Source: a virus
Taxonomy: Duplodnaviria; Caudoviricetes
Reading direction: 5' to 3' (one strand)
Length of the DNA: 64,000 bases
Virus record (IMG/VR): IMGVR_UViG_3300002485_000004
Span: 6,563-70,562 of that record
The position numbers were made by a program, and so were the translations under genes. The notes below the pieces were generated by a model. That model was not told the DNA's origin. It did no database searches and was given only the letters and a program-made list of their open reading frames with translations. Each line of letters opens with the position of its first letter. Within the stretch, counting starts at the first letter, position 1. Below are positions 8,283-63,441 of the stretch, piece by piece.

Positions 8283-8370
8283 ATCCCGGAGACAGCCGGG
8301 CCTGGTTGGTGCTGTGCGCTCCATCCGCGCCCGATCCAAACGGGTCGTCCCGGAGACAGCCGGGCCTGGT
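8283..8370 (-). CRISPR. Mini-array A: 2 repeats, one 40-nt spacer
   Basis: Repeats at 8283-8306 and 8347-8370 read ACCAGGCCCGGCTGTCTCCGGGA(T/C) on the minus strand, matching the array after the TnpB-like gene. Confidence 0.7.
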
Positions 8371-8478
8371 GGTCGTAACTCAGCAACAAAAGACTGAGGC
8401 AGCCCACGGGCCCGGTCGTGGGTTCCGCAAGCTGCCTCGGGCACTACGGGAGGTGTCACCCTCCCGCAGCGCATGGAC

Positions 8479-9027
8479 CTAGTATAGCAGGTCCTCACTC
8501 AACGTAGGCGGCGTAGACGGGTCGCCGTGCTGATTCCAGCGGGCCTTGGCGTAGCGGACGCACCGCATCATCCATCCCGGAAGTTCCGGGATCTTGTGCT
8601 TGATTAGGGCATCGGCTGCCGCGACCATGAGGGCGGCCTGCTTCTGGTACGCCAGATTCAGGTCTGGTTCCTTGTGGCCGACCACCTCCAGCTCCCTGAG
8701 CTTGCCCTTGAGCACCTTGAGCTCCTTCTTCTGCTCTTCCAAGTACTCCGCCAGCTTGACCTTCGTGACAATCGCGGCCTCCCTGGTAGCCAGCGACTTC
8801 TGCATCCCCTCGAGCATCGGGAACTCCCCGAAGCGCTTGTGGAGCTCTCCGAAGTTCAGCAACGACACGTACAGCGCAAGGCTGCTGTCCTCGATCTTCA
8901 GGAGCCGGTTCAGCGCCTTGGCAGCCACGTGCATGTTCTTGTCCTTCAGCGCTTTGAGGCAGAACTCCTGCGGAGCCTCGGCCAGTGCCGCGAGCTTCTG
9001 ATCTCTGGTCATCTCTTTCGTTGCCAC
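8479..9027 (-). CDS. Hypothetical helical protein
   Basis: 182-aa ORF with phage-like codon usage. Confidence 0.65.
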   Translation of the reverse strand: MATKEMTRDQKLAALAEAPQEFCLKALKDKNMHVAAKALNRLLKIEDSSLALYVSLLNFGELHKRFGEFPMLEGMQKSLATREAAIVTKVKLAEYLEEQKKELKVLKGKLRELEVVGHKEPDLNLAYQKQAALMVAAADALIKHKIPELPGWMMRCVRYAKARWNQHGDPSTPPTLSEDLLY

Positions 9028-9115
9028 TGTCTTCCTACTTTCTACGCCCGAAGGCGCATTGGTGAGCGGGGACCCACAGAAGCTCTACCACGACACTCCC
9101 ATGGGTATCCCCAGG

Positions 9116-9189
9116 TGGACTCAGCCGGATTCGGACCGGCAACAGCTCGCTTATGAGGCGAGGGCTCTAACCGATTGAGCTATGAGTCC
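9116..9189 (-). tRNA. tRNA with CAT anticodon (elongator Met or Ile2)
   Basis: Acceptor GGACTCA/TGAGTCC; anticodon arm CTCGC-CT-CAT-AA-GCGAG; T-loop reads GTCCGAATC. Confidence 0.9.
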
Positions 9190-9190
9190 G

Positions 9191-9263
9191 AGCTGGCGAG
9201 AGGAATCGAACCCCCAACCACCGATTTACAAAACCGGTGCTCTACCTATTGAGCTACACCAGC
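9191..9263 (-). tRNA. trnT: tRNA-Thr(TGT)
   Basis: GCTGGTG/CGCCAGC acceptor; CCGGT-TT-TGT-AA-ATCGG; GGTTCGATTC T-loop. Confidence 0.95.
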
Positions 9264-9545
9264 AAAAAGGTGGCACCTGATAGCATCTACGGGGCAAGCC
9301 CCTCAGCCACTAGGTGTTCCCGCTCGGGCCCATACGCCGCTTCATCGAGCTAACGCCCTCGACGGCGTGCAGGTTGTTCCCTCACAGCCCGGCACCGCCA
9401 CACCAGGGCTCTTCGAGCAGACCGTTTTTGCCAGCGTCACCTGGCTTCTTCATAGGCTCTCCAGCTCCTACTAGCCGTTGACACCCCACGAGGGTTTCAG
9501 ATGCATGGTTTTGGCACACCTGAATCTCTATGAGCACGGCGCGGG

Positions 9546-9618
9546 TTGAACGGACAGGGGTTGAACCTGCGACATGCGCCTTGTAAGGGCACCGCTCTAC
9601 CGACTGAGCTACCGTTCA
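9546..9618 (-). tRNA. trnV: tRNA-Val(TAC)
   Basis: TGAACGG/CCGTTCA acceptor; GTGCC-CT-TAC-AA-GGCGC anticodon arm. Confidence 0.93.
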
Positions 9619-9790
9619 AAGCGATGGGTGCTGCAAGTACTTCTACGGTTTCCCTCCGCCTTTGCAGCTTCTACCAAGAGACCCCGAGAACTGTGGGCGT
9701 GCAAGGGGGCGACTTCGTAACGGAACCCATCTCCCGTAAGTGAATAGTCCCAGCAGGTTTAATGATTCTGGTTCTTTCTCTATCCACTCG

Positions 9791-9864
9791 TCCGGATGGC
9801 TGGATTTGAACCAGCAACAACCGACTCCCAAAGCCGGTCCTCTACCAAGTTGAGGTACACCCGG
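9791..9864 (-). tRNA. trnP: tRNA-Pro(TGG)
   Basis: CCGGGTG/CATCCGG acceptor; CCGGC-TT-TGG-GA-GTCGG; GGTTCAAATCC T-arm. Confidence 0.93.
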
Positions 9865-9971
9865 GTGCTGGGGCAGTTTCTCGACTTGCCCCAGGTCGCC
9901 TCGCATGACCGATGCTCCGACGGTGCGGTGCAGCGCGAGTCACCGAGATTTATTCCCCTTGTCGGGGTTGC

Positions 9972-10271
9972 CTAGCCAGTCTTGTTGTTCCAGGCCGCTG
10001 TTTTCATCTCGCAGCGGCAGCCACGTTCAGTGTTGACGCACGACCAGGCGCCCCGAGCCTGCGCGTCTAGACTAGCCGATGAGGAGCCCAAGCGCTGAGC
10101 TCCAGGGGGCGACCGGGCAAGATGCTCCGGTTGCTCTCCACCACTTCCCCGGTTACCCGGGAGAAGACTCTCGTCCATCTTCCTTCGGTGCTGCCTGAGC
10201 ACCACTAGGAAGAGTAGCAGGGCCGCCGTCAACACAACCGCGAGGGCAAATGCCGTTTCCATCCAGTTCAT
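9972..10271 (-). CDS. Membrane-anchored hypothetical protein
   Basis: N-terminal hydrophobic helix FALAVVLTAALLLFLVVL followed by RQHRRK. Confidence 0.5.
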   Translation of the reverse strand: MNWMETAFALAVVLTAALLLFLVVLRQHRRKMDESLLPGNRGSGGEQPEHLARSPPGAQRLGSSSASLDAQARGAWSCVNTERGCRCEMKTAAWNNKTG

Positions 10272-10352
10272 CTCCGCAGCCTCCGCAGCAGCACGGGCAC
10301 TGCCTCGTGTCGATGTCGTGAAAGTCCTCGCACAGCACGCAGTATACGGCTC

Positions 10353-10619
10353 TCATCCCACCCCTTCGTGCCGCTGTCCCATGGTCTTGACCACCATGTC
10401 GATCCATTTCTGAACCGTGAACCCCATTGGGAGAGCCGTCACCACTTCGTCGTCGATGCAGATGTCCAGCTCCTCTTCCAAGAAGAGCGTGATGTACATG
10501 AGATCGAGCTCGTCCAGCTTGTAGCTGTTGAACGTAACGTCGTTCTTGACCTCGTTCTTCGGGACGCCGCAGAACTCCTGCAGTGCTTGATGAACCAGAG
10601 CCTCTACCTTCTTCTCCAT
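10353..10619 (-). CDS. Acyl-carrier-protein-like protein (DEL in place of DSL)
   Basis: MEKKVEALVHQALQEF..GVPKNEVKNDVTFNSYKLDELDLMYITLFLEEELDICIDDE...TVQKWIDMV aligns by eye to ACP; start taken at ATG 10619. Confidence 0.75.
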   Translation of the reverse strand: MEKKVEALVHQALQEFCGVPKNEVKNDVTFNSYKLDELDLMYITLFLEEELDICIDDEVVTALPMGFTVQKWIDMVVKTMGQRHEGVG

Positions 10620-10620
10620 C

Positions 10621-11055
10621 CTATTTCCTCTCCCAACTAGAACGGCGTCCGGGGCGCACAACATCCTCTGGAGCCGACCCGTGGGCCACACGGTACCGAA
10701 GAGTGCTGTGCGGAACTCCCGTAATCTCACTCCATTCCGCCAACGTCTTCGTCTCACCTCCGACCGTCAAGAACACGTTCTTTGAACTATTCCTGTTCTG
10801 CGTCCTGCGGTCCGTCCAGCGTATGTTACCAGGCTCGTACCCTCTATTGTTGTCAATACGGTCGAGCGTAAGTCCAGCGGCAGGCTTAGGCCCAACATGC
10901 TGAAAGAAGCGAGCGAAGCCGCCACTACCCAGCCAATCGCTATGCACCTTAACACCACGGCCACCGTAGTCCTTGTACTGCCTGAACTTCCTATTGGTGC
11001 AGCGCTGCACCATGTTCTGCCACGCCATATACTCAGATGTTCTATCGGAGGACAT
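10621..11055 (-). CDS. HNH homing endonuclease-like protein
   Basis: EYMAWQNMVQRC...YGGRGVKV...TLDRIDNNRGYEPGNIRWT..TQNRN, followed by a C-terminal HTH. Confidence 0.85.
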   Translation of the reverse strand: MSSDRTSEYMAWQNMVQRCTNRKFRQYKDYGGRGVKVHSDWLGSGGFARFFQHVGPKPAAGLTLDRIDNNRGYEPGNIRWTDRRTQNRNSSKNVFLTVGGETKTLAEWSEITGVPHSTLRYRVAHGSAPEDVVRPGRRSSWERK

Positions 11056-11067
11056 CTACCTCCTTAG

Positions 11068-11425
11068 AGGACCCGTCGGGAGTTGAACCCGAATCCGCAA
11101 AGTTCTGTTCGCTTCCTCTTCACATGCTTGGCTGCTTAACCCTGCAGCGGGTTGTAGCGGCTTGGTAAGTGACCCGCCTCGTAGGACCGCCGAAGTATCT
11201 CGACCGGAGCCCGGCATCCCAGCTCGCTCTCTCGGTCCAGCCCTTGTTGGGTTTACGCCTCGGGGGGTACTAGGACTCCTACCCCGTCAACGGCCGGGTG
11301 GCTTACGCCACGTCGGCAAGATAGTTGTCGTTGGCAACTAGCTGATGCCCACTTTTATTAAGGCTGTGTGAGCCCAGCCTGCATGCAGAAGTGTTCTTTC
11401 CTCCACGTCGAAACCGGTCGGGCCC
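11068..11425 (-). ncRNA. ssrA: tmRNA
   Basis: 5' GGGCCCGACCGGTTTCGAC; 3' GGGTTCAACTCCCGACGGGTCC with G3:U70 pair; tag frame TAGTT-GCC AAC GAC AAC TAT CTT GCC GAC GTG GCG TAA (11303-11335). Confidence 0.92.
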
Positions 11426-11508
11426 GGAATAGAAGACGGCTGGGAGCAAGCCCCCATTGAGCCCTCGGGCGCCGTCCAATAAAGCATGTGCCGCGTGAAG
11501 TAGCCGTG

Positions 11509-14500
11509 TCAAGAAGTTCTTATCAACCCGTTGACGATGGCCCTCTCTCGCATGAGCTCCCGGCGCACCCTGCCCAGCTCCTCGTCCAGCTGGTACTTCG
11601 ACTCCTCCGCCTGCGCCTTGATCCTGGCGGCGGACATGTTGGTGGAGCTGATGACCTCGTTCAGCTTGTCTTCCCTACGCTGGAAGTCCAAGACCTGCTG
11701 GTACTTCTCCGTGGCCAACTTCCTGATGTCCACGTCCTGCGCCATGACCAGCTCCACCAGCTTGGCCTTGCTCATCTTGTTCAATGCAGACTTCTTCATC
11801 CTCATCTCCTCTTTGCTGTTATACCCCTCCTTCCTCGATTCTTTCTTTCCTTGGCGTTGGCTGCCTTCAACTGAGCGCTGAGTCGGGCAAGGGAGCTCTC
11901 GGCGCCATCGTATCGTGCCTGGTACACGGTGAGGTACTCCTTCAAGTTATCCACCACTCGCTGCGTTTCCTTCACCAACGCGCGCACGCAAGCTGACTCC
12001 GTGGCCAAGCAGGATGCGTAGCGGTCTCCCTTCAACTCTCGCGGACTGGTGACGATCAAGCTTGCGTACCTGTTGTCCTGCACGAACCGAATGTTGGTTA
12101 CCTTGCCATGGGAACTGACTACCCACCCGGTCCCGCGCAGCGGGTACTTGCGCTTCTTTGCGGCCTTCTTCACGCCACTACCCTCGTCACTTTCCACTCC
12201 ACGTCGACCTCAACGAACCTACCTACCAAGGGCTCTGACATCACAAAGCACCTGCTGTGGTCCTGCTCCAGCTTCAGACCCAGAAAGGTGCCCGAGGACT
12301 CCAGCCCCATGCTTCTGAGGTATAGCTGGAGGCGGCCGTAGGCGGGGTAACACAGGCGCAGTATCGCCGGGGTCGCATCGAGGGCACGTAGCTTGTACAT
12401 CGCCTCTGCAACGGCTTTCTTCATCACCGTTCCATAGTCCCCCAAGCACCCAAGTAGATCCCGCTGGTAACTCTTGACGTCCTCCTCAGTGAACGTGACG
12501 AACGGAGTTACCAGCTCAGGACCTTTGAAGTTCTTGCTTCTGGGAGTCGCAAGCACACAGTCGGGACGCCACGAGGGCTCCACGTGCTCCATGAAGTAAC
12601 CAACGGCCCAATCGATGCTTCTGTCTTGAAGCACCGTCACCACGTTGGGTATCTCTACAATCCGGTAGTTGATCCATTGCTCTTCTCTGATCATGTCAAA
12701 GCCACCCTTTCTTCTTGGCGATCCACTCGGTCACAATAAGCGTGCCCTCGTTACCTACTTCGTACACCTCGCTGTCTTCCGTGATCTGACTCTTGGGGAG
12801 CCAGCACTTCCCAGGCTCGTCCTCGCCGTCGAACTCCTCACACGTCTTCTGCATGAGGAGCGACTTGCCGTTCTTGGATTCGGCGATGCACGTCACGTGC
12901 TCGATGTCGTAGCCTGGCGTCACTTTTTCCTCTGTTCGGTTTCCCACCTCTTGTAGTGGTCCGAGGTCTTGTACAGACCGATGGCAGAGATTGTACGATT
13001 CGCAGCCTTGTCGCCGAGAATGAGCATGTAGTTGTTTTCGATGTCCCACCACCCGTCGAACTTGGAGTGGCTGAACGAGCCTTCAATAGAGCCCGGCTTG
13101 AACAAGGACTCCTTGAGGTAGGTGAGCTCCTTCAGGCGCGTCGTTCCGTCTTTCAGCCCAGGTACCAGGCGCTGGATGTCGTCTACGCACTCCGTTTTGG
13201 AGAGGATGTACAGCCTTCGTCCATCGTGAGCAATGACCTTTGGCTCCACAGGCGTGACGACGTAGCGGTCTAACTCACGCGTTATCTCCCGCAGTGATTG
13301 TGGTAATGCCCCATACTCAAACTCAGCGGCGCCCATGTAGTCCAGGCTCCACATTTGGTCGAAGCCTGCGGGTTCGTTCTGATGACGCAGCTTCATACGC
13401 TGAATCAAGTAGGGTCGGATGTCCTCTTTCATTTCTCCTCCAAGCGCTCTCGAGCGCATTGTTCACAGCCCTCGACAATGGTGTTGAACGACGTGTGCCC
13501 GTGCTTCGGGCAGTTGTCCATCCACCAGCCGTTCCTGGAGCCCGGCATGCTAGCGGGACTTCTGGTCGCCTCTGCTCTTCTAGCGTGCTCGTCCAGCTTC
13601 ACACCCGTCTGATACGCCACTACTTCCTCCTCTAGCAATCCCGGAACCGAGCTCGATCTGGAAACGCCTTCTTGAACACCTCCAGGCACTCTTGGCACAG
13701 CGACATGCTCCCACGCATGCCATCTGGGCCTGGCTTCAGCTCCGTGGCGATGACCACCGGCGCCTTCTCACAGCGAACCATGGAACGGGGGCCGAAAGTC
13801 ATGAAGCTGCCCTCCCTGCTCTCGCCCTGACACCGCTTCAGGTCTGGAGGAATCAGCTTCTTGCTTCCCTTCTCCGCTATATCTCGTCCCTTCTTAGCAA
13901 GGAACGGGATGATGACCTTCCTAATGTGGCCTACGATAGCCACTTCAATAGCCGACTCGTCGAAGCAGTTGTCCATCTCCTCACCTAACACCTCAGCCGC
14001 CCGTCGCCAGGCACGTGCGCGAAGCTCACTCTTCGTGAGTTCTACACAAACCGCCACGTGCTTGGAGAGGTTGGTCTCGGAGATGCTCCGGTCGCAGTAA
14101 GGACACTCAACCTTCTTCAGGTTTCCTTGTACTGTCATCTTCTTCCTTCGAGGACAGCCCTAGCCGTCTCACTCCATGGGGGTTCATGAACATTGCACCT
14201 ACTTCATCTTCTTCCCACATCCTCTTGTGAATACCGTGTAGTACCACTAGGTTCGTACCCATGGTGCCAAGGATGTCGTGGTTTGGACCCTGAGCGACGA
14301 GGGCCTCGATGTCCCGCTTCAAACCGTCGAGGCAGTTATGTAAAACGTACACTTCCTTCACGGTGGGCTTTCGCAAAGCTTCTCCTCTCCATCCCAATCC
14401 GGGTGCTTGCACTTCATGTGCGCGGCAAGCTGCTTGAACGTGCGCTTGCAGCAGGGGCACACACCGTTCTTCACGCGCTCAGACTGGTTTCGCAGCTTGC

Positions 14501-16135: not shown

Positions 16136-16143
16136 GGCAGAAC

Positions 16144-24156: not shown

Positions 24157-24375
24157 ATGAAACGCACCGTAAGATTGTACGACCTCGATGAGGGGAATCA
24201 CGAGGCCATCGCCTACATCACGGCCGAGGAGGACATTCTCGATCTTCTCATCACTGAGGAGGAATATGAGGACCTCGGGGTGGAGGAGATCACGATGGTT
24301 AACGTAAACAGCGCAGAGGAACTTGCAGACCTCCTTGCCCGTAAACCGATAGATGAAGAGGAGACAACAGGATGA
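24157..24375 (+). CDS. Acidic hypothetical protein
   Basis: Likely start ATG 24157 after the promoter. Confidence 0.55.
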   Translation: MKRTVRLYDLDEGNHEAIAYITAEEDILDLLITEEEYEDLGVEEITMVNVNSAEELADLLARKPIDEEETTG

Positions 24376-25514
24376 GCAACTTCAACCCCGACGAGTGGGA
24401 CGGCTCCAAGCCCCTCCCTGTTCTTTACGCCCGCACAGCCACTGGAGCCACCAACGTCTGGCGCTGCTGGATTGAGGGGGCGTACGTCTGCGTGGAGTGG
24501 GGGCAGCTTGACGGTGCCCTTCAACAGGGCCGTTTCGCCTGCGCTCCCAAGAACACCGGGCGTGCCAACGCAACGACGGCGCAAGAGCAAGCCCGTCTCG
24601 AAGCTATCTCCAAGTGGAAGAAGCAGCTGAAGAAGAAGTACTCCATGACAGTGGAGGCCACGAAGGAGATGAACTTCTCCCCGATGCTGGCCAAAAGCTT
24701 CAACGACAGAAAGGACAAGATCACGTACCCGGTCTACGTGCAACCGAAGTTCGATGGGGTGCGGTGCATGGCTTACCGTGACGAGAACGGGGACGTGCAG
24801 TTGATGAGCCGCGGAAAAGACCCATACAACGTGCTTCACATCTCTGGGGCGTTGGACGGCCACCTGCGCAGCGGCGACGTACTGGACGGGGAGCTATACA
24901 TCCACGGGATGAAGCTACAGGACATCGTCAGCCTGGTGAAGCGCCCGCAAGGGGCTAGCAAAGAGCTCATGTACTGCGTCTACGACATTGTTAGGATGCG
25001 CGGCTACCAAGCGCAAAACTGGGAGGAGCGCTTGAACTACTTGAACGACTGGTTCGAGATTAGTCGCTTTCAGGGGCTTTCTCCGTCCATACAAATGGTA
25101 CAGACCGTGAAAGCGCCAGATGAGATGAACGTTCGACACTGCCACGACGAGTACGTGAAGATGGGGTACGAGGGTGCCATCATCCGCCTCCCAGAGGGCA
25201 TCTACCGCTTCGGATATCGCTCAAGTGACCTGCTGAAGCTGAAGGCGTTCCAGGACGACGAGTTCAAGGTCATCGGATGCCAGCCTGGAAAGGGCAAGTT
25301 CGCCAACGCCCCCATCTTCAGGTGCGTGACGAAGAACGGCAAGGAGTTCGACGTCGTACCGAAGGGCACAGAGCAAGAGCGGTACGAGATGCTGTGCAGG
25401 GCCATGAAGGGCTCCTACGACGGCAAGTTTCTCAACGTCCGCTTCTTCTCATACACGAATGATGGGGCTCCGCAGTTCCCCGTCGGGATGTACTTCAGGG
25501 AGGAAGGTACATGA
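24372..25514 (+). CDS. ATP-dependent DNA ligase with N-terminal WGR-like domain
   Basis: Motif I VQPKFDGVRC; LDGELY; GYEGAIIR; LLKLKAFQDDEF; C-terminal PQFPVG. Confidence 0.92.
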   Translation: MSNFNPDEWDGSKPLPVLYARTATGATNVWRCWIEGAYVCVEWGQLDGALQQGRFACAPKNTGRANATTAQEQARLEAISKWKKQLKKKYSMTVEATKEMNFSPMLAKSFNDRKDKITYPVYVQPKFDGVRCMAYRDENGDVQLMSRGKDPYNVLHISGALDGHLRSGDVLDGELYIHGMKLQDIVSLVKRPQGASKELMYCVYDIVRMRGYQAQNWEERLNYLNDWFEISRFQGLSPSIQMVQTVKAPDEMNVRHCHDEYVKMGYEGAIIRLPEGIYRFGYRSSDLLKLKAFQDDEFKVIGCQPGKGKFANAPIFRCVTKNGKEFDVVPKGTEQERYEMLCRAMKGSYDGKFLNVRFFSYTNDGAPQFPVGMYFREEGT

Positions 25515-32512: not shown

Positions 32513-33859
32513 ATGCCAAGACATATCAAGCATCACGACGGAAGAGAGATTCGTGGGCTGCGCGTGAAGTGCTACCCAACGCCCGAACAAGCGCTAGCGT
32601 TGCTCGACTTGCAGAGAAGACTTCGTCGGCTGTGGAACTGGTTAGTTGCGAGGTCTTCAGACACTAGAGCGGCTCGCGAAGCCTGGGCCTCTCGCAATGG
32701 AGCAGGAACTCGACCTGCGAGACCTGAGAACGACGCTGGAGAGCAGGCATGGGCCACCTACAAGACGGTGATGAGCGAGTGGCGAGCGCGTGTTCGATCT
32801 GTGCTGGAACTGCACAAAAAGGATCCCGGGCTCGCGTATCGAAACGTGCGTGACTACATCGCTCAGTTCGGCGTTGATCACGACTACCAGCTCTACCCGC
32901 ACTTGTTCGACGATGATCAGCCCCCGCTTGCACACCCGCAGCAGGCGCTCTTCAAAGATTACGAGGCGGCCATGCGGGCAACCGCTCGGGGCCAGCGACC
33001 GCCCAGGAGGCGCAAGCGCGACGAGGACATGCCGCTGCGGGTGGGGTCTGGCACACACTTTCGTCAGGTCGCAGATGGCGGTCGCCGAGTGATTGGGCAT
33101 CATCCTAAAGGACCGCAGATGAGCGGGAGAATCAACTGTCAGGTGAGCCTACCTGGCATCGGCTGGATCAACGCCACCATTTCTTCAGAGCAGCCACTGG
33201 AGGCTCAAGAGTACTGGGTGGAGGGGGTGGCCCTACGACGTGAAGCCGACGGGTGGTACGCGGCAATACGCCAGCACGTCGTGCCGACTGTGGCGCCGAA
33301 GGGCGTTGGTGCGTGCGGCATCGACGTCGGACTCGTCTATTTATTCGCGGCGGTAGGCGACGATGGACAGCAGATTGTGGCTACGAATCCACGTCTTGGT
33401 TCACGCCGTGGGCACCTGCGAACACCAGGCGGGTACGTCGAGCTCATTGCTGAACGACAAGCGGCAAAACTTCCAACGACGATCCTTCAATGTCGGTCGG
33501 CGCGCAACGTGCGGCAGGTGGTACGAGAGCAACTGTTTCCATTCACAGATCGCTACGAGTTCATTGCAGTCGAGAACCTACCGGCCAACATCGGGTTCCT
33601 CGAGACGCCCCACTTGTCGTTCATGCGCACTGTTCGATCAATGTTGGTCCAGCGCTACGGGTGCGAGAGGGTCATCGACGTCGATCCAACGAACACCTCT
33701 CGCATATGTTCCAAGTGCGGGCATCTGTGCAATAGATCTTGGTCTGACCTGCTAGGGCGCGTGGGTCTATGCCCAGCTTGCGGCCACTCAGAGATGTCAG
33801 ATCTGAACGCCGCTCGCAATGTGCTCCACAGACTATCGAAACTATTGGCCGCCGAATGA
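32513..33859 (+). CDS. tnpB: TnpB/Cas12f-like RNA-guided RuvC nuclease (candidate miniature type V effector)
   Basis: N-terminal RVKCYPTPEQ...LRRLWNW; RuvC-I CGIDVG; RuvC-II IAVENL; zinc ribbon CSKC...CPAC; RuvC-III SDLNAARNV. GGAGG SD only 9 nt after the upstream stop. Confidence 0.9.
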   Translation: MPRHIKHHDGREIRGLRVKCYPTPEQALALLDLQRRLRRLWNWLVARSSDTRAAREAWASRNGAGTRPARPENDAGEQAWATYKTVMSEWRARVRSVLELHKKDPGLAYRNVRDYIAQFGVDHDYQLYPHLFDDDQPPLAHPQQALFKDYEAAMRATARGQRPPRRRKRDEDMPLRVGSGTHFRQVADGGRRVIGHHPKGPQMSGRINCQVSLPGIGWINATISSEQPLEAQEYWVEGVALRREADGWYAAIRQHVVPTVAPKGVGACGIDVGLVYLFAAVGDDGQQIVATNPRLGSRRGHLRTPGGYVELIAERQAAKLPTTILQCRSARNVRQVVREQLFPFTDRYEFIAVENLPANIGFLETPHLSFMRTVRSMLVQRYGCERVIDVDPTNTSRICSKCGHLCNRSWSDLLGRVGLCPACGHSEMSDLNAARNVLHRLSKLLAAE

Positions 33860-33876
33860 CGACCCTCGCCGCACCA

Positions 33877-34238
33877 ACCAGACCCGGCTGTCTCCGGGAC
33901 GAGAAGCGGACCAGGCGAGGACCGACCTTGAGCACCCTCACCGCGCACACTAGGCTCGGCTAACTCCGGGACAGGTCGACCTCGCCCTTGGCGATGTCCT
34001 TACAAGATGCACCAGGCCAGGCTGACTCCTGGACTACCCGCTCGCTGAGGCAGACATTCGCACCACACCTACCAGGCCCGGCTGACTCCGGGACGCTCTT
34101 GGGATGAGCGAACGCGCTCCCATCGCCTCTCCTCGCCGCACCAACCAGGCCCGGCTGACTCCGGGACGCAGGTCGAGGCACGCGCTGCACTCCCGGTGAA
34201 CGCGCTCCAAACGCACCGGTCCAGGCTTCATACATGGC
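33877..34238 (+). CRISPR. Array B: five 24-nt repeats plus one degenerate terminal repeat
   Basis: Repeats at 33877-33900, 33949-33972, 34011-34034, 34071-34094, 34144-34167 and a degenerate copy at ~34215-34238. Unique spacers of 48, 38, 36, 49 and 47 nt. Confidence 0.85.
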
Positions 34239-47114: not shown

Positions 47115-48262
47115 GTGGAACCATATCAAGAAGGGCCGCTCAACCGACTGCCTCCAGGAGAAGTGAGCGTGTCAACACTGGGGGTGTGCTCTGGCACCCT
47201 CGGCAGCTTTGAGCTCGAGGCAGCTGCTGCTCTCGTTGTGGTGCACCACTGGATGAACGGCCTGGGTGATTGGTCTTCAGTCACCCCGGCCGATTTGTTC
47301 GAGTGTTGGAAGCACAATGAGCACATGAAGGCGGCATCGCAAAACCCGTTTTGGAGACCCGCGATTGGAAGACTCAGAGAAGACGGCTGGGTTACCGGAT
47401 GGGACACTCCAGCGTCTGCGGGCACGATCTCCGAAAGGTTCATCTTGGCCGTCAGCAACCCATCAGTGAACGGGCAACTGGGCTACTTGGCTCGGGAGCG
47501 GCACATCAAGGAGCTTTCTGTAGCTAAGCATTCACCTCGCTAACGGGGCATAAAGGATGAAGAGGTAGACGATGGTTGAATGGACGCCAGAGATGTGGGT
47601 CGCGCTGGCAACAGTCGTAGGCTTCAACACACCCGCAGAGCAACAAACGACACTTGGCGGCAAGGTGTTCTGCAGGATGGGCAGGGACCTAGCTGAAAAG
47701 GAACTCATCAAGCTCGGTGGCGAGGTCAAGATGAACAAGGACGTCGCCCTCATAACCATCCGCGGTGTTCCGGATGTCGTCTTCACAAAGAGTGACATCG
47801 AGCTCATGCGCAAGTGCGTGGCGGACTACGACAAGGAGAACAGCAATGGGTGACAACACATCAGCCGGGATATTCGGCACGCTCTTTGTGGCGTTGAGCA
47901 GAGCGAAGCCACTGGGTCCTGAAGCCGTGCGCTGGCTTGCCACATGGGCGTGGGAGAAGTCGAGGGAGTACGACTTCTGTGATGGCCAGATGAGGGAGTA
48001 CCACGACGGCGTAGTAGATGCGCTGGTGGACTTGGGGCTGGCTGAGCGAGAAACCGTCGATGATGAGGAGCAGGTGTTCTACAAGGAGCGCAAGGGCATC
48101 GATGCGGATGCCATGCTGAACTACCCGTACAAGATGATGCCGGGGCAGGGACCTTACACAAGGCAGGAGCTGGAACAGTTCAAGGCCATGCTCCAAGACG
48201 CCATCGATGATGACCCAGGGGAACAAGGCGAGGTTGAAGGAAAGGACGGAGCCAGCAGATGA
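47115..48262 (+). other. Three hypothetical ORFs (47115-47543, 47572-47853, 47846-48262)
   Basis: ORF track. Confidence 0.6.
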
Positions 48263-49491
48263 AGCTCCCGCTGTCTAACGCCCGCTGGATGCGGCAGCTG
48301 ATGCGCATCAGCACCGATGTGCTGGGCAAGCTCCCATCTCGTGATGACGGGGTGCTGACCACCGCCATCAAGTGCCTGGCCGTGTACGACTCAATCTGCA
48401 AGTTCGTGGGCACCCGTGGAGAAGGCTCACTCCCGGCCTTCATTGCTGCAATAGGTGGAGAGGAATCGATGGCGAACCCACACTTCGTCCATTTGTTCTT
48501 CTCCACCGCTGTAGGCGACGGGTTCAAGGTAAGCAGAGCCCCCTACGACGAGCACACCAACGTGGTGGTAGCTGAAGGAGCGGGCGGCTCCATGTTCTTC
48601 GTGGAGTGGCGCTGGGGCGCGGTGCCCGACAGGTCGGAAACCGTGTGGTTCACCCGAGGATTCAACTTCGCCAACGTGATGAACTACGTGTGGGACCAGT
48701 TCGGGCAGGCAATACACGTCGACTTCAAAGAGACCCGTAACGGGCTGTCAGCTTGCTACGGGGAGGTGTGCAGGGAAGACTTTGAGCTGAGCGGGGCATC
48801 AGCCACGCGCTTCGAGAAGTTCATCTCCAGGCATCGAGAATACGAGCGTGACGGGGTCACAAGAACCTACCTGTTCGTAGGTCCCCAAGGCGTAGGCAAA
48901 ACCACGTTCGCACTGCGCGCTGCTCGAGTACTGGGCGGCAGGATACTACGCCTGAACGCCAGAGGGCTGTCTGAGCTCCGCGCGGATGAGCTCAACTTCC
49001 TACTGAGCAACCTGCGCCCCAAGTTCTTCGTGGTGGACGACCTGGACAAGGTCGACGTCAGCGCCTCGATGCCCAAGCTGCTGCAGGTACTGGCCGAGCT
49101 CAAAGCCAAGCACCCGAAGCTGGTGACGTTCCTCACTGCTAACAAGGCGACGTTCGATTCGTCGATGACGCGCCCAGGAAGGGTGGACGAGATCATCGAG
49201 TTCTCAGCGCCTGATGAGAAGGAGCGCATGGAGCTGCTCATCAAGTTCACAGGCTCTAAGCAAAAACCAGCCCTTCGCACATTGGCCAAGGCATCCGATG
49301 GGCTTACCGCGGCCTACTTGAAGGAGATAGCCCTGCAACTCTCATACAGGAGCCTAAGCGAGGTTGCTGAGCTAGTGAAGCGGATGACCGATGCGTGCTC
49401 CAACGCCGCAAGCAGCAACGAGAAGAAGTCGGACGAACCGCCGACGCTAGAGAACACCAAGATGGTGAGAAAGGTGAAAGGTCAGGTATGA
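48259..49491 (+). CDS. AAA+ ATPase
   Basis: Walker A GPQGVGKT; Walker B FVVDDLD; sensor TAN; RPGRVD arginine finger. Confidence 0.88.
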   Translation: MKLPLSNARWMRQLMRISTDVLGKLPSRDDGVLTTAIKCLAVYDSICKFVGTRGEGSLPAFIAAIGGEESMANPHFVHLFFSTAVGDGFKVSRAPYDEHTNVVVAEGAGGSMFFVEWRWGAVPDRSETVWFTRGFNFANVMNYVWDQFGQAIHVDFKETRNGLSACYGEVCREDFELSGASATRFEKFISRHREYERDGVTRTYLFVGPQGVGKTTFALRAARVLGGRILRLNARGLSELRADELNFLLSNLRPKFFVVDDLDKVDVSASMPKLLQVLAELKAKHPKLVTFLTANKATFDSSMTRPGRVDEIIEFSAPDEKERMELLIKFTGSKQKPALRTLAKASDGLTAAYLKEIALQLSYRSLSEVAELVKRMTDACSNAASSNEKKSDEPPTLENTKMVRKVKGQV

Positions 49492-56010: not shown

Positions 56011-56031
56011 AGAAGTGGAGGAACAACAACC

Positions 56032-57489: not shown

Positions 57490-57490
57490 T

Positions 57491-57563: not shown

Positions 57564-57580
57564 AGCTGTGGAGGTAGAAC

Positions 57581-58051: not shown

Positions 58052-58053
58052 TT

Positions 58054-58128: not shown

Positions 58129-58189
58129 AACAATGAAGAAGGGACACGACCTTCCTTAGAAAACCAACAACGTTCTGTGGAGGAACACC

Positions 58190-58573
58190 ATGTACATCCG
58201 TAAGATCGAGAACCGGTTCGAGACCAGCACCAACGGCAAGGACTACACCTCGTTGAACGAGCCGCTGCCGGCGAAGATCATGCGCTGCTTCGAGAAGACT
58301 GATGCGCGGACAGTCTACTGCGCGTCCAGCTTCTTGGGAGTGAACGAGGCCCACATGATCACCCCCCTCGATGGGAAAACGTCAGCATGGGCCACCGAAG
58401 CGCTTCCGGCGCGCACCCCCACCCGGGTGCGGTACGTGCAGGTTCGCAGCCACGCGGACACCGAGGCCGAGGTGTGGTGGCTGTGGGCCGGGTTCACCTT
58501 CGTGTGGATCTGGGTGCTGCTCATCTACGCGGCAGCGGCCGCTGGCAGCGCCAAGAGCGACACCGCGACGTGA
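58190..58573 (+). CDS. Hypothetical protein with C-terminal TM helix
   Basis: GGAGG SD; WWLWAGFTFVWIWVLLIYAAA. Confidence 0.65.
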   Translation: MYIRKIENRFETSTNGKDYTSLNEPLPAKIMRCFEKTDARTVYCASSFLGVNEAHMITPLDGKTSAWATEALPARTPTRVRYVQVRSHADTEAEVWWLWAGFTFVWIWVLLIYAAAAAGSAKSDTAT

Positions 58574-58575
58574 AC

Positions 58576-58623
58576 AACGACACCCGCAAGGGTGCAGCCC
58601 CTTCGGGGGCCGTTCGCTACCCC
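58576..58623 (+). terminator. Three-way junction + CTACCC element
   Basis: AACG/CGTT stem; CACCC-GCAA-GGGTG, CA linker, GCCCC-TTCG-GGGGC. Confidence 0.65.
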
Positions 58624-58778
58624 CATTTCAACGCCTGCAAAAGTGGGGGTAAAGAAGAGATAACAACTGTGGAGGGAAAAGCCCGCGTTGTTGGTCCCCC
58701 CGGCTTGAGTCGGCTGCCCAGGTGTTCCTCCACCTCCTTCCTGGGCAGTCGGCTCGGCCCCTATCTAAGGGCCTTCTT

Positions 58779-60056: not shown

Positions 60057-60077
60057 AACCACCTCCTTTGCCGCTGT

Positions 60078-60114
60078 TGTTATACCGCAAAGTAGCGAGT
60101 ACTTGTGGCATAAA
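60078..60114. promoter_or_regulatory. Interlocked bidirectional promoter
   Basis: Plus strand: ACCGCA(60084-89)-N17-GGCATAAA(60107). Minus strand: GCCACA(60109-04)-N17-GGTATAAC(60086). Confidence 0.6.
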
Positions 60115-60132
60115 AGAAGTGGAGGAACAACC

Positions 60133-60324
60133 ATGAGCAACAAGGCAAGAGAAGAAGCTAAGTTGGTGGATGCTGTCTTCGAAGACGGCACATGGATAGC
60201 GCGCGTCAGTCACCGCCAAGTGCGGGAGTACCTGGTGGGGATCGCCTCCACCCGGGAAGAGGCGATCAGAAACGCCTTCGCGCGCGTCACCATGCGCGCG
60301 CGAGGAGCGCAGCAGGGCTGCTGA
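60133..60324 (+). CDS. Small hypothetical protein (single-gene cassette)
   Basis: GGAGG SD; followed by a three-way-junction element. Confidence 0.6.
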   Translation: MSNKAREEAKLVDAVFEDGTWIARVSHRQVREYLVGIASTREEAIRNAFARVTMRARGAQQGC

Positions 60325-60372
60325 ATGGCGCCGCGCAAGCGGTGCGGCCCCACCCGGGGCCTTCAGCTAGCC
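60321..60372 (+). terminator. Three-way junction + CTAGCC element
   Basis: CTGAA/TTCAG stem; CGCCGC-GCAA-GCGGTG and GCCCC-ACCC-GGGGC. Confidence 0.6.
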
Positions 60373-60377
60373 CCACT

Positions 60378-61030
60378 TCACTCTTCTTCGAGTGACTCGA
60401 GAGAGACCATCTCTACAGAGTATTCGCTGTAGTAGGAGTTGTCGCACCCATCCTGCTTCTTGCGACGCTCCGCTGGTCTTCCCGCCATCTTGATGGCCCG
60501 TGGGGTGAACAGCTTCACCTTCTCACGAACGTAATCGGGATCGAGGTCCAGCTGCTCGCACGCGCACAGGAAGCTGGTGAGCTGCATCCCCTCTTGCTCA
60601 CGCTGTATCCACCAAGGATGCCCTGGCTTCTCCTCGAACAGCCACGTGTAGGCGTTGTTGGCCAGCTCGAGCTGCTCGAGACGGCTGCTAGAGCGGTAGA
60701 GCACCCAGTCGTGCGCAGCGCGACGAATGAGCTCAAGAAGCAGAGCTCGTGCGTGTTCAGCCTCGTAAGCTGCATCCAGCGGCTCTGGTCCCCATGAGGA
60801 CTCATCTACCGCTGCGTCTTGTTCCTCTGCCAGCTCTTCCTGCGACGGCACCTTTACAGGAGCAGGAGTGGGCTGAGGTGTGGGGCGTGGGCCCCACAGT
60901 AGCTCCAGCGTCTCAAGTATCTCGGCCCCAAACGACTCTAAGAGGTCGTCCCTGCCTAGCCCCTTGGCTATCTTCGCGACTACCCGAAGCGCGCCGAAGG
61001 CTACTTCTTGAAGCTGTTGGTTGTGGGTCA
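60378..61030 (-). CDS. Hypothetical protein (start uncertain)
   Basis: The C-terminal part ALLLELIRRAAHDW...SFLCACEQLDLDPDYVR looks coding; the track ORF's 5' extension overlaps 61028-61924. Confidence 0.55.
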
Positions 61031-61924
61031 GACCACGGAGATCTGAACTTCGGATCCCAAGATATACGTCACGTACGGGATCTGGACGATTGTCTTGTCT
61101 CGGCGCGACGCACGCAACGTGGTCGTTCCTGCTTTCAACCCCCGCAGCGACAACTGCGTCTGGTTTGCTGTCAACGACACCACTGTCTTGTCGCTCATCT
61201 CCCACGTCACGTCGGACAGCGCCGTCCCCTCGAGGAGGATGCCACTCGACGTGCGGACGGATGGGGTGATCGAAAGTGTACTTCCAATCGATAGCTGAGT
61301 CGGAAGTGCCTCCAGGTAGGAAATGGAGCTCACCACTGCGAAGAGCAGATCTGGCAAGTTCACACTCGAAGAGTCCGGTACGGAAACCGTTCTCCCTTGG
61401 TCTTCCCAAGCCTCCACTGTCACTGAGTACTTCGCGCATCGGATGAGGTCTATACAGGCGTACCCGCTGCCGTCGGTCCGAATCGCCCTCTTGTCAGGGA
61501 GGACTCCTGCCTGGTCTAGCAGAACTGGACCGAATGCTCCAGTGAAGATGATGTCCAGCCCGCTGTGCGCTTGACCCGTCACCGTCCTGAAGTATCCAGA
61601 CGCCCGGCACAGCAACGGGTCCCTCGAAACAGGTCTGTTGAGCTCCTGTGCGTACACCTGAAATGAGTTGAGCAAAGGCGCCCCGTTTGGTCCCTCTTGT
61701 ACAGAGATGAGCTGCGGTTGTTGTACCGATGCCTTGAACTTGTAGAACCGAAGGCTGTACTCGAGGGTGTACAAAAGGAACCCAGCCCTACCCGCAGAGT
61801 CGGTGGTCCCCTCGGTGTAGAGCATGGTCCCACCCTTGTCGTAGACGCGTACGAGCACCCCCGACACCGGCTCCCTCGTCTCGGAGTTCAACACGTACAC
61901 GTCGACTTGCTGGTAGCTGGCCAT
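61028..61924 (-). CDS. Virion structural protein with carboxypeptidase-regulatory-like and Ig-like (Big_2) domains
   Basis: PVSGVLVRVYD...GTTDSAGRA; C-terminal VTWEMSDKTVVSL...LRGLKAGTTTLRAS. Confidence 0.65.
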   Translation of the reverse strand: MASYQQVDVYVLNSETREPVSGVLVRVYDKGGTMLYTEGTTDSAGRAGFLLYTLEYSLRFYKFKASVQQPQLISVQEGPNGAPLLNSFQVYAQELNRPVSRDPLLCRASGYFRTVTGQAHSGLDIIFTGAFGPVLLDQAGVLPDKRAIRTDGSGYACIDLIRCAKYSVTVEAWEDQGRTVSVPDSSSVNLPDLLFAVVSSISYLEALPTQLSIGSTLSITPSVRTSSGILLEGTALSDVTWEMSDKTVVSLTANQTQLSLRGLKAGTTTLRASRRDKTIVQIPYVTYILGSEVQISVV

Positions 61925-62973
61925 CAGATGCTCCTGCGCTCGGCGTAGACGACGTTGGGGACCTGCACAGTGAAAACGTCGTCCATCGTACCGAAGTCAT
62001 CCCCCAAAAGCGGGAAGGACTGCACCCCCTGGTCTTCAGGGGCCACGATGTCCCTCACGATGTCCGTCCCCGAGATGGACACCGTGTACTGAACCCCCCT
62101 CACCAAGGTGAACTGCACGTTACCGTTACGGTCCGTGACCTTCGTGTCCTGGTAGCCAGTAACCAACTTGCCCTCCACCAAGCTGCCACGCGTGGGCGAA
62201 TAGACGCTCACCCGGCGCCCAGTAAGGGGGCGACCGTCGGACTTTACCAGGTAGAGGTAGCCAACCACCGTGCTGGCCTGCGTGAGCCCCATGGACCCGG
62301 TGACGGGCAGCGGCAGACTGAACTCGCTCGCCGTCCCCAGCGCCTGGTTGAAGAGGCGTGTGCGGTAGTAGCTGTCCTGCGTCCCCCGCAGGTCGACGAA
62401 CCGGTAGGTGGCCCTCCCGTTGATGATGTTGATCCTGGCGTCCTGCCCCACACCCTGCGAGCTGGGCAGTTCCATGGGTAGGTTGAAGAGGGCTGCAGCC
62501 TCCCCGCCCACCACCTCGAGGACTGCCCCCGTGCCCGGACGAACACCTTCCAGTACCAGCAGAATCTCACCGGTGGTCGCCACCTGGGCCACGTAAGCCC
62601 TGAAGCGCCCCACCCCTGCAGCTGTGAGCTCCGCCGCCGCCTCCGCGTAGGTAATGGGGTCTGGCCCCGCCAGCACCACCTCGATGTCCTCGCTGTCGTC
62701 CAGGCGAAGAAGGAAGCTGGTGCCAGCTGCAAGGACCTGCGGCCCCACCACTGGCACCGCTGGCTCATCCGGCGCGTCACGAGGCACGCGTGCCGGGCGC
62801 CAAGCATCAGAGGTGAGCTCATAGTACGGACCATTGGCAGTGGAGTCAGACCTCCACACCTGAATCTGGTCAAAGCCTTGTACTTCTTCCTCACGCACTA
62901 CCACGGTGAGGGTGACGACCTCGGAGATGGCCGCTTCATCTCCTACGATCGGCTGGATGATGATGGTGCTCAT
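61924..62973 (-). CDS. Probable virion structural protein (Ig / transthyretin-like C-terminus)
   Basis: DGRPLTGRRVSV...TDRNGNVQFTLVRGVQYTVSISGT. Confidence 0.55.
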   Translation of the reverse strand: MSTIIIQPIVGDEAAISEVVTLTVVVREEEVQGFDQIQVWRSDSTANGPYYELTSDAWRPARVPRDAPDEPAVPVVGPQVLAAGTSFLLRLDDSEDIEVVLAGPDPITYAEAAAELTAAGVGRFRAYVAQVATTGEILLVLEGVRPGTGAVLEVVGGEAAALFNLPMELPSSQGVGQDARINIINGRATYRFVDLRGTQDSYYRTRLFNQALGTASEFSLPLPVTGSMGLTQASTVVGYLYLVKSDGRPLTGRRVSVYSPTRGSLVEGKLVTGYQDTKVTDRNGNVQFTLVRGVQYTVSISGTDIVRDIVAPEDQGVQSFPLLGDDFGTMDDVFTVQVPNVVYAERRSI

Positions 62974-62982
62974 GCGAGTATT

Positions 62983-63204
62983 CTACTCGCTGCCGGTCAG
63001 GAATGCCTCGATTTCATCCACCAGCAAAGCGGACGCTTGCTTCGTGGTCTCATCCTGCAGCCGCTGAGGTCCATTGCGCCCCTTCAGGATGTTCTGCGCA
63101 AGCTTGACCTGGTCTTCAAGACGGCGCCGGTGCTTGTCCCGCCATTGCTTGGTGGCCACCTCCAGCTCATCCAGAACCTCGTCCCGTCTCTGTTTGTCCG
63201 TCAT
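62983..63204 (-). CDS. Small hypothetical protein
   Basis: 73-aa helical ORF. Confidence 0.55.
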   Translation of the reverse strand: MTDKQRRDEVLDELEVATKQWRDKHRRRLEDQVKLAQNILKGRNGPQRLQDETTKQASALLVDEIEAFLTGSE

Positions 63205-63267
63205 TTGTCACCGTAACGCTGAGCGCTGTAAGCCCGACGTTTTGCGCAGGGCCGTCGTGGTGGGCGA

Positions 63268-63441
63268 GTCTCGGAGTCAGCCGAGCCTGGTAAAGATTGA
63301 AAGATTGTGAGCTGGGCGCGGCGCGCGATCGATTCCGAAGTCTGCAGTCCCGGAGACAGCCGGGTCTGGTATGTGCTGTGAAGTGGCGAACAAGAGCGGG
63401 CCGGGGATGTGGTTCAAGTCTCGGAAACAGCCGGGCCTGGT
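63268..63441 (-). CRISPR. Mini-array C: 3 repeats, spacers of 47 and 55 nt
   Basis: Repeats at 63418-63441, 63347-63370 (identical to the repeat at 33877) and 63268-63291; starts 5 nt after the rnhB stop. Confidence 0.75.

What the first reader, a model, noticed from the sequence alone, without database searches (positions are those of the whole stretch)
8283..63441. The same repeat forms two satellite mini-arrays 24 kb and 29 kb from the effector
Seen: array A (8283-8370, minus, 2 repeats) and array C (63268-63441, minus, 3 repeats) use the same repeat as array B; the 63347 copy is identical to the 33877 copy. All three arrays lie just downstream of a stop codon and in the direction of transcription (C is 5 nt after rnhB, B is 17 nt after tnpB). 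Inference: guides are distributed across different operons, so different guide sets could be made at different infection stages. Alternatively the small arrays act as crRNA mimics, as RNA-based anti-CRISPRs (Racr) do. Standard CRISPR finders would probably miss 2-3 divergent repeats.
Basis: partly seen in the sequence, partly recalled or inferred. Interest (0 to 1): 0.85.

Follow-up and report, generated by a model that had tools for sequence, protein, structure and literature searches.

The report
Scattered guide repeats of phage nuclease
A phage that carries a very small CRISPR-type DNA-cutting enzyme keeps that enzyme's hairpin repeat next to the gene and also in three other gaps between genes, most likely as extra guide-RNA units; unrelated phages that share the enzyme show the same scattered layout.

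Summary
The 24-nt hairpin repeat occurs 11 times on the 70.6-kb viral contig and nowhere else. There are five copies after the 448-aa TnpB-like nuclease (B), two at 8283-8370 (A), three at 63268-63441 (C), and one solitary copy just outside the window.

It is not a genome-wide REP or terminator. Relatives of the nuclease (40-98% identity), all on phage-like contigs, carry regular 36-nt-repeat arrays beside the gene. Every sufficiently long nuclease-bearing contig I examined also has satellites, although the phage backbones are unrelated. A short contig whose 339-aa ORF is homologous to the gene beside locus A carries a regular six-repeat array at the matching position.

The hairpin shows compensatory changes, some of them inside the satellites. 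None of these phages has Cas1 or TnpA.

Most likely the satellites are extra guide units (a 24-nt handle plus about 20 nt). This rests on analogy with the published Cas12r system, where a single repeat suffices.

Not shown: any RNA, any target, or any stage-specific expression. The A 'spacer' differs between close relatives only as part of a larger swapped block. One complete related phage has three cognate solitary repeats and no nuclease.

This scan has noted comparable satellite repeats in other phages. I rate it a new variant of a known kind.

The parts
32513..33859 (+). 448-aa TnpB/Cas12f-like RuvC nuclease (the effector)
   Evidence: It matches PF07282. D271, E354, D430 and four zinc-ribbon Cys are invariant in 16 relatives down to 28% identity. 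The AlphaFold model (pLDDT 84) matches TnpB and Cas12f structures best. It scores below every curated subtype cut-off.
33877..34167 (+). Main array B: five repeat cores at 33877, 33949, 34011, 34071 and 34144, with irregular spacing of 60-74 nt
   Evidence: The interior is completely replaced in the 98%-identical relative G1, while the first and last repeats and both flanks are conserved.
8347..8370 (-). Satellite A, repeat 1 (perfect core)
   Evidence: 44.5 bits. It marks the left boundary of the block that differs between G0 and G1.
8307..8346 (-). Satellite A, 40-nt spacer
   Evidence: It cannot be aligned with the 47-nt spacer at the same site in G1. No match was found in IMG/VR, in the relatives examined or in the contig itself; locus A was not queried against the cultured-phage collection.
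8283..8306 (-). Satellite A, repeat 2 (ends GGGAT). It is followed after 1 nt by AGGAGG and 8 nt later by the ATG of an 81-aa gene.
   Evidence: The G1 copy carries the compensatory stem variant CCCAG/CTGGG.
8391..8405 (-). Terminator-like hairpin with a T-run between the upstream gene and satellite A
   Evidence: It is conserved in G1.
8029..8274 (-). 81-aa Cys-rich ORF directly behind satellite A. Together with the spacer and repeat 2 it forms the block that is swapped between G0 and G1.
   Evidence: It has no Pfam or PHROG family.
63268..63441 (-). Satellite C: three repeat cores (63418, 63347, 63268) with spacers of 47 and 55 nt
   Evidence: Copy 63268 has the compensated stem CTCGG/CCGAG and copy 63418 has a single mismatch.
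63447..63998 (-). RNase HII gene (cut by the window end). Its stop codon lies 5 nt before satellite C.
   Evidence: PF01351, E 7e-27.
62983..63204 (-). 73-aa ORF that starts 63 nt after the last repeat of C, on the same strand

Best explanation
A, C and the solitary copy outside the window are additional loci of the CRISPR-like array that belongs to the phage's own 448-aa TnpB-derived RuvC nuclease. Each unit is the 24-nt 3' part of the repeat (a 5-bp hairpin, a 6-nt loop and AC) followed by about 20 nt or more of downstream sequence. The units have no recognisable promoter of their own. They sit in the sense orientation inside or at the ends of other operons, so they would be transcribed with those genes. 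They would then be cut out and loaded on the nuclease as extra guides, presumably against competing mobile elements or the host. The arrays do not grow by Cas1-Cas2. They change by recombination at the conserved core, which explains the irregular spacing and the mixed 5' extensions. Shown: the repeats are identical, the hairpin is under selection, the repeats are linked to the nuclease across genomes, and the arrays are remodelled. Inferred: transcription, processing, loading and targeting.
For: (1) The same core occurs 11 times at four loci and nowhere else on the 70.6 kb.
(2) Across 69 distinct copies from this and related contigs, 99.1% of stem cells pair. Three of five pairs show double compensatory changes, and no shuffle out of 500 reaches this. 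Some of these changes lie inside satellites (63268; the G1 copy of A).
(3) Relatives of the nuclease carry regular arrays of 36-37-nt repeats with a period of 71-75 nt beside the gene: G1, G7, L168, L245, L102, L257 and L285.
(4) G0 shares only the nuclease with G2 and G7, yet G0, G2 (12 satellite copies), G7 (7), L285 and the L166 contig all have satellites, almost all co-oriented with the flanking ORFs.
(5) L231, whose 339-aa ORF is 58-60% identical in amino acids to the 299-aa gene at 7074-7973 beside locus A, has a regular six-repeat array at the position matching A.
(6) Only the 3' 24 nt are conserved in satellites, and the smallest spacing seen anywhere is 42-44 nt, which is a handle plus about 20 nt.
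(7) The 5' extension of repeat 2 in A matches the extension type of the main array in the same phage, in both G0 and G1.
(8) No Cas1 and no TnpA is present.
(9) Precedent: phage Cas12r (564 aa, TnpB-derived, degenerate repeats) needs only crRNA, and a single repeat plus 18 nt makes a working guide (bioRxiv 10.64898/2026.04.20.719267).
Against: No protospacer was found for any spacer, whether in cultured phages and plasmids, by IMG/VR exact 20-mers, or in the relatives. Therefore no PAM is known and targeting is unproven. No RNA data are available. A lies behind a terminator-like hairpin, and no sigma-70-type promoter precedes any locus. The replacement of the A spacer between G0 and G1 is part of a roughly 300-nt block that also swaps repeat 2 and the whole 81-aa gene, so it is not spacer-specific turnover. 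Terminal and solitary copies abut ribosome-binding sites, which would also suit a cis-regulatory role. A 448-aa TnpB-like protein would normally need a long scaffold RNA. I found neither a conserved scaffold nor an anti-repeat, which leaves the RNA requirement open.
Confidence: 0.5

Rival explanations
1. The satellites are cis-acting mRNA elements. The nuclease, or a host RNase, binds or cuts the hairpin inside polycistronic transcripts. This separates cistrons and leaves a protein-bound or stabilising 5' hairpin next to the ribosome-binding site, so that expression of the downstream gene depends on nuclease level. The sequence between repeats is only filler.
For: Terminal or solitary copies end 0-22 nt before start codons in several genomes. 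In the window, 8283 is followed after 1 nt by AGGAGG and then ATG. Others are contig 5585, G1 3934, G2 18855, and G6 22198 and 24601. Most satellites in G2, G7 and G6 are single copies in short sense-oriented gaps between genes. No targets were found for any spacer.
Against: Loci with two to six repeats and unique intervening sequences of 20 nt or more (A, C, L231, G2 17333, the array upstream of the L285 nuclease) are unnecessary for punctuation. G6 keeps the hairpins without having the nuclease. No natural case of this use is known to me.
Confidence: 0.2
2. The dispersed copies are by-products of recombination. The conserved 24-nt core acts as a short homology patch at which co-infecting phages exchange modules, and copies persist as neutral or selfish linkers without producing functional RNA.
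For: The block that differs between G0 and G1 starts exactly at the end of repeat 1 of A, and the differing part of B lies exactly between its first and last repeats. Array B mixes three kinds of 5' extension that are typical of different phages. Spacer-repeat units are duplicated in G1, G2 and G7.
Against: Compensatory stem changes and 99% pairing, including in satellites, show selection on the fold and not just on DNA identity. Orientation is almost always sense, which recombination alone would not require.
Confidence: 0.13
3. The copies are decoys or immunity marks: crRNA mimics that occupy a rival's nuclease (as RNA anti-CRISPRs do), or insertions that remove the PAM beside a site a rival would cut.
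For: The complete 51-kb phage G6, which shares its backbone with G7 and G2, has three solitary hairpins and no nuclease. Their exact variant (ACGA prefix, CTCTCT loop) is the array repeat of L231. Contig G4 carries one solitary copy of the repeat type found in L016, which comes from the same sample.
Against: The window's phage encodes the cognate nuclease, so inhibiting it makes little sense. No dedicated promoters were found. The G6 copies could also be relics or cis elements.
Confidence: 0.12
4. The repeat is a generic REP-like or terminator hairpin of these phages, unrelated to the nuclease.
For: It is a short GC-rich palindrome located after stop codons. G6 has copies without having the nuclease.
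Against: There are only 11 copies at four loci and no T-run follows the hairpin. The repeat is shared by unrelated phages whose only common gene is the nuclease. It forms regular repeat-spacer arrays beside that gene. Single matches in bacterial genomes are at chance level.
Confidence: 0.03

Closest known systems
Cas12r-CRISPR of Thermus Lalka phages (bioRxiv 10.64898/2026.04.20.719267)
   Same: A phage-borne, TnpB-derived small effector sits inside a phage operon and is followed by a short array of degenerate repeats. There is no Cas1 and no tracrRNA. The guide is the 3' part of the repeat plus 18 nt, a single repeat suffices, and the terminal repeat plus flank also yields an RNA.
   Different: Cas12r has 564 aa and 29-bp repeats, occurs in thermophiles, and has spacers with known targets and a known PAM. 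The present family has 440-470 aa and only distant similarity to any phage protein in the collection (28% identity or less). It has a different repeat and, unlike what is described for Lalka phages, repeat units scattered over other operons.
Viral solitary repeat units and RNA anti-CRISPRs (Racr; PMC10651486)
   Same: Single CRISPR repeats or mini-arrays lie in intergenic gaps of viral genomes, away from any cas gene.
   Different: Racrs mimic the host's repeats, have their own promoter and terminator, and inhibit the Cas complex. Here the cognate nuclease is encoded by the same phage and no promoters are seen. Only the nuclease-less relative G6 fits the Racr pattern.
crRNA-like regulatory RNAs (CreR, crlRNA, Cracr; 10.1101/2023.03.03.530964, 10.1101/2024.10.29.618823)
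   Same: Degenerate mini-arrays or stand-alone repeats give guide-like RNAs with special roles.
   Different: Those RNAs pair partially with the promoters of cas or toxin genes close to the locus. No self-target was found for any guide of this contig at up to 4 mismatches in 20.
IS200/IS605 TnpB with omega RNA (own knowledge; PDB 8h1j, 8exa, 8iaz as fold matches)
   Same: The protein has the TnpB fold, size and RuvC triad. For solitary copies the 'guide' is simply the DNA that flanks a fixed RNA handle, as at a transposon right end.
   Different: There is no TnpA and no IS ends, and the gene is embedded in a phage operon. The handle is 24 nt long, not a scaffold of more than 100 nt. There are repeat-spacer arrays, and no conserved structure was found in the 3' end of the ORF.
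Cas12j (CasPhi) and Cas-lambda systems of huge phages (own knowledge; PDB 7m5o, 8dc2 as weak fold matches)
   Same: These are phage-encoded, crRNA-only type V systems without an adaptation module. Their repeat ends in a short hairpin followed by AC, and their arrays are small.
   Different: Those effectors have 700-800 aa and belong to other clades (Foldseek E about 1e-6, against 1e-15 for TnpB and Cas12f).

Membership tests
CRISPR array (repeat-spacer array) | Direct repeats of one conserved sequence | tested here: met
   The 24-nt core is conserved in all 11 copies.
CRISPR array (repeat-spacer array) | Regular spacing with unique spacers of near-constant length | tested here: not met
   In the window the core-to-core spacings are 60, 60, 64, 71, 72, 73 and 79 nt. 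Relatives do have regular periods of 71-75 nt.
CRISPR array (repeat-spacer array) | Spacers match foreign DNA next to a PAM | tested here: inconclusive
   No significant match was found in the phage or plasmid collections, by IMG/VR exact 20-mers, or in related contigs. The source metagenomes could not be searched in full.
CRISPR array (repeat-spacer array) | Adaptation genes cas1 and cas2 nearby | tested here: not met
   There is no PF01867 hit in G0, G1, G2, G6 or G7. These genes are also absent from known phage type V systems.
CRISPR array (repeat-spacer array) | Processed crRNAs are made | not testable with these tools
Type V effector (Cas12/TnpB superfamily) | RuvC D-E-D triad and C-terminal zinc ribbon (TNB) | tested here: met
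   D271, E354, D430 and four Cys are invariant. PF07282 matches at E 7e-12.
Type V effector (Cas12/TnpB superfamily) | TnpB/Cas12f-like fold | tested here: met
   Foldseek E is 3e-15 to ISFba1 TnpB, and TnpB and Cas12f structures fill the top ranks.
Named type V subtypes (Cas12f, V-U2, V-U4, Cas12p and others) | Score above the curated family cut-off | tested here: not met
   NCBIfam guided_TnpB scores 78.5 against a cut-off of 100, Cas12f2 scores 30 against 450, and C2c8 scores 25 against 350. PADLOC hits are weak.
IS200/IS605 TnpB transposon | TnpA or IS ends, and an omega-RNA scaffold over the 3' end of the gene | tested here: not met
   There is no Y1 transposase. The gene start overlaps or abuts the upstream phage gene in relatives. 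The covariation term for the 3' region is unfavourable.
RNA anti-CRISPR (Racr) | A solitary repeat that mimics a CRISPR system NOT encoded by the same element, with its own promoter | tested here: not met
   The cognate nuclease is on the same contig, and no promoter-like sites were found. G6 meets the first half of this feature.
REP-like element or intrinsic terminator | Many genome-wide copies, or a hairpin followed by a T-run, and independence from the nuclease | tested here: not met
   There are 11 copies at 4 loci and no T-run. The repeat co-occurs with the nuclease across unrelated backbones.

The most novel reading that the evidence does not exclude
The solitary and array-terminal copies may be RNA-guided exclusion or homing devices. 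In that reading, the handle plus the phage's own flanking sequence (often the start of the next gene) forms a hard-wired guide. The guide spares the carrier, because the repeat occupies the PAM position, but cuts co-infecting relatives that lack the insertion. Repair from the carrier would then copy the repeat and the neighbouring alleles into the rival. This would be TnpB's transposon-retention logic moved into a phage genome. It would explain the sharp G0/G1 mosaic block that starts at repeat 1 of A, and the cognate solitary repeats in the nuclease-less phage G6 (as scars or immunity marks).
Probability: 0.1. Interest if true: 0.85.

Novelty: new variant of a known kind. Interest (0 to 1): 0.6.

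Why it matters
If the satellites make working guides, this is a CRISPR-like system whose guide genes are spread through a virus's operons rather than kept in one array. It would have no adaptation genes, and its effector would be smaller than any published crRNA-only Cas12 that I found. That bears on how TnpB nucleases become CRISPR effectors, because single 'handle plus flank' units and true arrays coexist here. It also bears on how phages fight each other. In practice, a 448-aa nuclease with a 24-nt handle would be attractive as a tool. The finding also shows that array finders miss such loci.

Tried and rejected
- Protospacer searches all came back empty or at chance level. I queried arrays B and C and the 1-kb G7 array against cultured phages and plasmids. 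I ran exact 20-mers of the A and C spacers against IMG/VR. I also compared all family spacers with every sequence fetched; the best cross-genome hits there (E about 0.008, with 235 queries) are not significant.
- No self-target exists for any guide on the contig.
- A search for an anti-repeat or tracrRNA near four nuclease genes gave only noise-level duplexes.
- A consensus fold of the 3' end of the nuclease ORF gave no support for a scaffold.
- Thermodynamic folding of A and C in context gave z-scores of 0.1 and 1.3, which is uninformative for a 5-bp hairpin.
- Rfam has no family for the repeat.
- Scans of bacterial genomes and metagenomes with a degenerate hairpin pattern returned over a hundred single chance hits each. 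I therefore treat the single copies in G3 and G5 as chance.
- No relatives of the gene beside array C were found.
- The neighbouring genes are orphans, so no temporal class could be assigned.
- The Cas12p ('hacker') family is not the same system: it has 500-700 aa and uses a tracrRNA.


Full report
WHAT IS THERE.

The window is bases 6563-70562 of a 70,562-bp IMG/VR viral contig (GC 59%, CheckV completeness 37%). I call this contig G0.

The repeat core is 24 nt long: ACCAGGCCCGGCTGTCTCCGGGAC. It has a 5-bp stem, a 6-nt loop, and AC at the 3' end.
- With up to 3 mismatches it occurs 9 times in the window, against 0 expected by chance.
- A looser search adds the copy at 33949 and one copy outside the window at contig 5585-5608.
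- A covariance model built from 69 distinct copies, run without filters, recovers exactly these 11 copies (33.6-51 bits). The next hit scores 10.6 bits.

C begins 5 nt after the RNase HII stop codon and B begins 17 nt after the nuclease stop codon. A is different: it begins 108 nt after the upstream ORF, behind a terminator-like hairpin with a T-run.

IS IT THE NUCLEASE'S REPEAT OR A GENERAL PHAGE HAIRPIN?

The ORF at 32513-33859 is a distant TnpB/Cas12f-like protein.
- It matches PF07282, and its RuvC D-E-D triad and zinc ribbon are invariant in relatives down to 28% identity.
- Its predicted fold is closest to TnpB and Cas12f structures.
- It scores below every curated subtype threshold.
- Its roughly 35 relatives are all metagenomic, and those on longer contigs lie among phage genes.

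Next to the gene, these relatives carry ordinary-looking arrays.
- G1 (98% identical nuclease) has five 37-nt repeats with a period of 71-74 nt.
- G7 (41-44% identity; a complete 49.9-kb phage) has 17 repeats of 36 nt.
- L285, L168, L245, L102 and L257 have a period of 73 nt.
- All of these repeats end in the same hairpin.

Across the 69 copies, 99.1% of stem positions pair. Three of the five pairs show double compensatory changes, and none of 500 shuffles reaches this. Two of these changes are in satellites (63268, and the G1 copy of A).

Every nuclease-bearing contig long enough to judge also has dispersed copies:
- G2 has 12 beyond its main array.
- G7 has 7.
- L285 has 2-3.
- The L166/L217 contig has 2.
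- L016 has a solitary copy after the stop codon.

G0 shares nothing with G2 and G7 except the nuclease (tblastx). The scattered layout therefore travels with the nuclease module, not with a phage lineage.

L231 is a 2.3-kb contig whose 339-aa ORF is 58-60% identical in amino acids to the window's 299-aa gene at 7074-7973. It has a regular six-repeat array at the position that matches satellite A. Locus A is therefore an old second array site, not debris.

None of G0, G1, G2, G6 or G7 has Cas1 or a Y1 transposase. Rfam has no matching family.

Single matches to a degenerate hairpin pattern in bacterial genomes and metagenomes are frequent enough to be chance.

THE EXCEPTION.

G6 is a complete 51-kb phage whose backbone is related to G7 and G2. 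It has three solitary hairpins in sense-oriented gaps 19-33 nt before gene starts, and no nuclease. Their exact variant (ACGA prefix, CTCTCT loop) is the array repeat of L231. The copy number is tiny, however, and the variant is cognate to a real array. I read these copies as decoys, scars or relics rather than as evidence for a general terminator.

HOW THE ARRAYS CHANGE.

G1 is syntenic with window 4344-36024 at 86-96% nucleotide identity.
- In B, the flanks and the first and last repeats are conserved, and everything between them is replaced.
- At A, identity is about 100% up to the end of repeat 1. It then falls to about 50% through the spacer, repeat 2 and the entire 81-aa gene, and returns to 100% at about 8045.

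The 'spacer turnover' at A is therefore part of a larger mosaic exchange bounded by a repeat. This weakens it as evidence for guide selection. It points instead to recombination at the conserved core.

Consistent with that, B mixes three kinds of 5' extension that are typical of different phages. The extension of repeat 2 in A follows the main-array type of its own genome in both G0 and G1.

LIKELY MECHANISM.

Only the 3' 24 nt are conserved in satellites. The smallest spacing anywhere is 42-44 nt, which is a handle plus about 20 nt. This is what a crRNA-only type V enzyme needs.

The published phage Cas12r system (564 aa, TnpB-derived, degenerate repeats, no tracrRNA, no Cas1) makes 44-nt guides from 26 nt of repeat plus 18 nt. 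It works with a single repeat, and it also makes an RNA from the terminal repeat plus its flank.

By analogy, my best reading (0.5) is that A, C and the solitary copy are co-transcribed with their host operons and yield extra guides for the same nuclease.

All steps after the DNA level are inferred. No targets were found, no promoters were found, and RNA data were unobtainable. I also found no scaffold or anti-repeat that a protein this small might be expected to need.

RIVALS.
- A cis-regulatory or processing role (0.2). It is suggested by terminal and solitary copies that abut ribosome-binding sites.
- Recombination linkers or selfish spread (0.13). This is suggested by the mosaic boundaries, but it does not explain selection on the fold or the sense orientation.
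- Decoys or immunity marks (0.12). This is plausible mainly for G6.
- A generic REP element or terminator (0.03). This is essentially excluded.

COMPARISON AND NOVELTY.

Orphan arrays, virus-borne mini-arrays, solitary repeat units, RNA anti-CRISPRs and crRNA-like regulators are all known (PMC10651486; 10.1101/2023.03.03.530964; 10.1101/2024.10.29.618823). This scan has also noted satellite repeats in other phages that carry their own CRISPR systems (those notes are unchecked).

Three things are new here. The effector clade is, as far as I could find, undescribed. The satellites are consistently embedded in the sense orientation within operons across unrelated phages. Arrays, mini-arrays and single 'handle plus flank' units coexist. 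I rate it a new variant of a known kind, with interest 0.6.

Noticed in passing
L001:5585-5608 (contig coordinates; 954-977 nt before the window start), minus strand: This is a fourth locus: a solitary repeat ending GGGAT, 16 nt before the ATG of a 1191-aa orphan ORF. Upstream lies TTGGTG, 17 nt, then TACAAT, which the promoter scan did not accept.
   Followed up: partly
window 8045-8347 versus L012:3681-4005: A sharp mosaic block separates two phages that are otherwise about 93-100% identical. It starts exactly at the end of repeat 1 of array A. It ends at a conserved element after the 81-aa gene that contains CTAGC, which may be the 'CTAGCC' element of another first-stage note.
   Followed up: partly
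window 33865-34167: The 12 nt before each core in array B fall into three types: GCCGCACCA, CTTACAAGATGC (like the G1 repeat) and CACCACACCT (like the G2/L168 repeat). The array looks assembled from units of different phages.
   Followed up: partly
L166:207-435; L010:4503-4694; L009:17177-17430; L034:7611-7890: Several spacers in relatives match their own genome within 250 nt of the array. One matches 25/25 to a gene just downstream, whose product carries a PKTGGT motif that I read by eye as sulfotransferase-like (no domain search run). One matches 18/18 downstream. One matches 27/30 as reverse complement upstream. In G7, the first spacer is complementary to the 3' end of the nuclease gene. 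Their meaning is unknown (regulation, RNase III sites, or locally derived spacers).
   Followed up: partly
L168:1-4328: Two nuclease genes, each followed by its own array, lie in tandem within 4.3 kb.
   Followed up: no
L037-L039 (G6): 22198, 24601, 47955, minus strand: A complete phage without the nuclease carries three solitary copies of the repeat variant used by the L231 array. Two of them lie about 20 nt before replication-gene starts.
   Followed up: partly
L009:12208-12231: One repeat copy in G2 (stem with a G-U pair) appears to lie inside a 103-aa ORF with high GC3. It may be an in-frame 24-nt insertion.
   Followed up: no
window 9116-9864 and 11065-11425, minus strand: Four tRNA genes and a tmRNA gene (Rfam 85 bits) lie just upstream of array A on the same strand, so A sits at the end of an RNA-gene cluster.
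   Followed up: no
window 24372-25514; 48259-49491; 4285-5403: These are an ATP-dependent DNA ligase, an AAA ATPase, and a protein with an endolysin-like C-terminus. Most other large ORFs (1055-1348 aa) have no family in Pfam or PHROGs.
   Followed up: no
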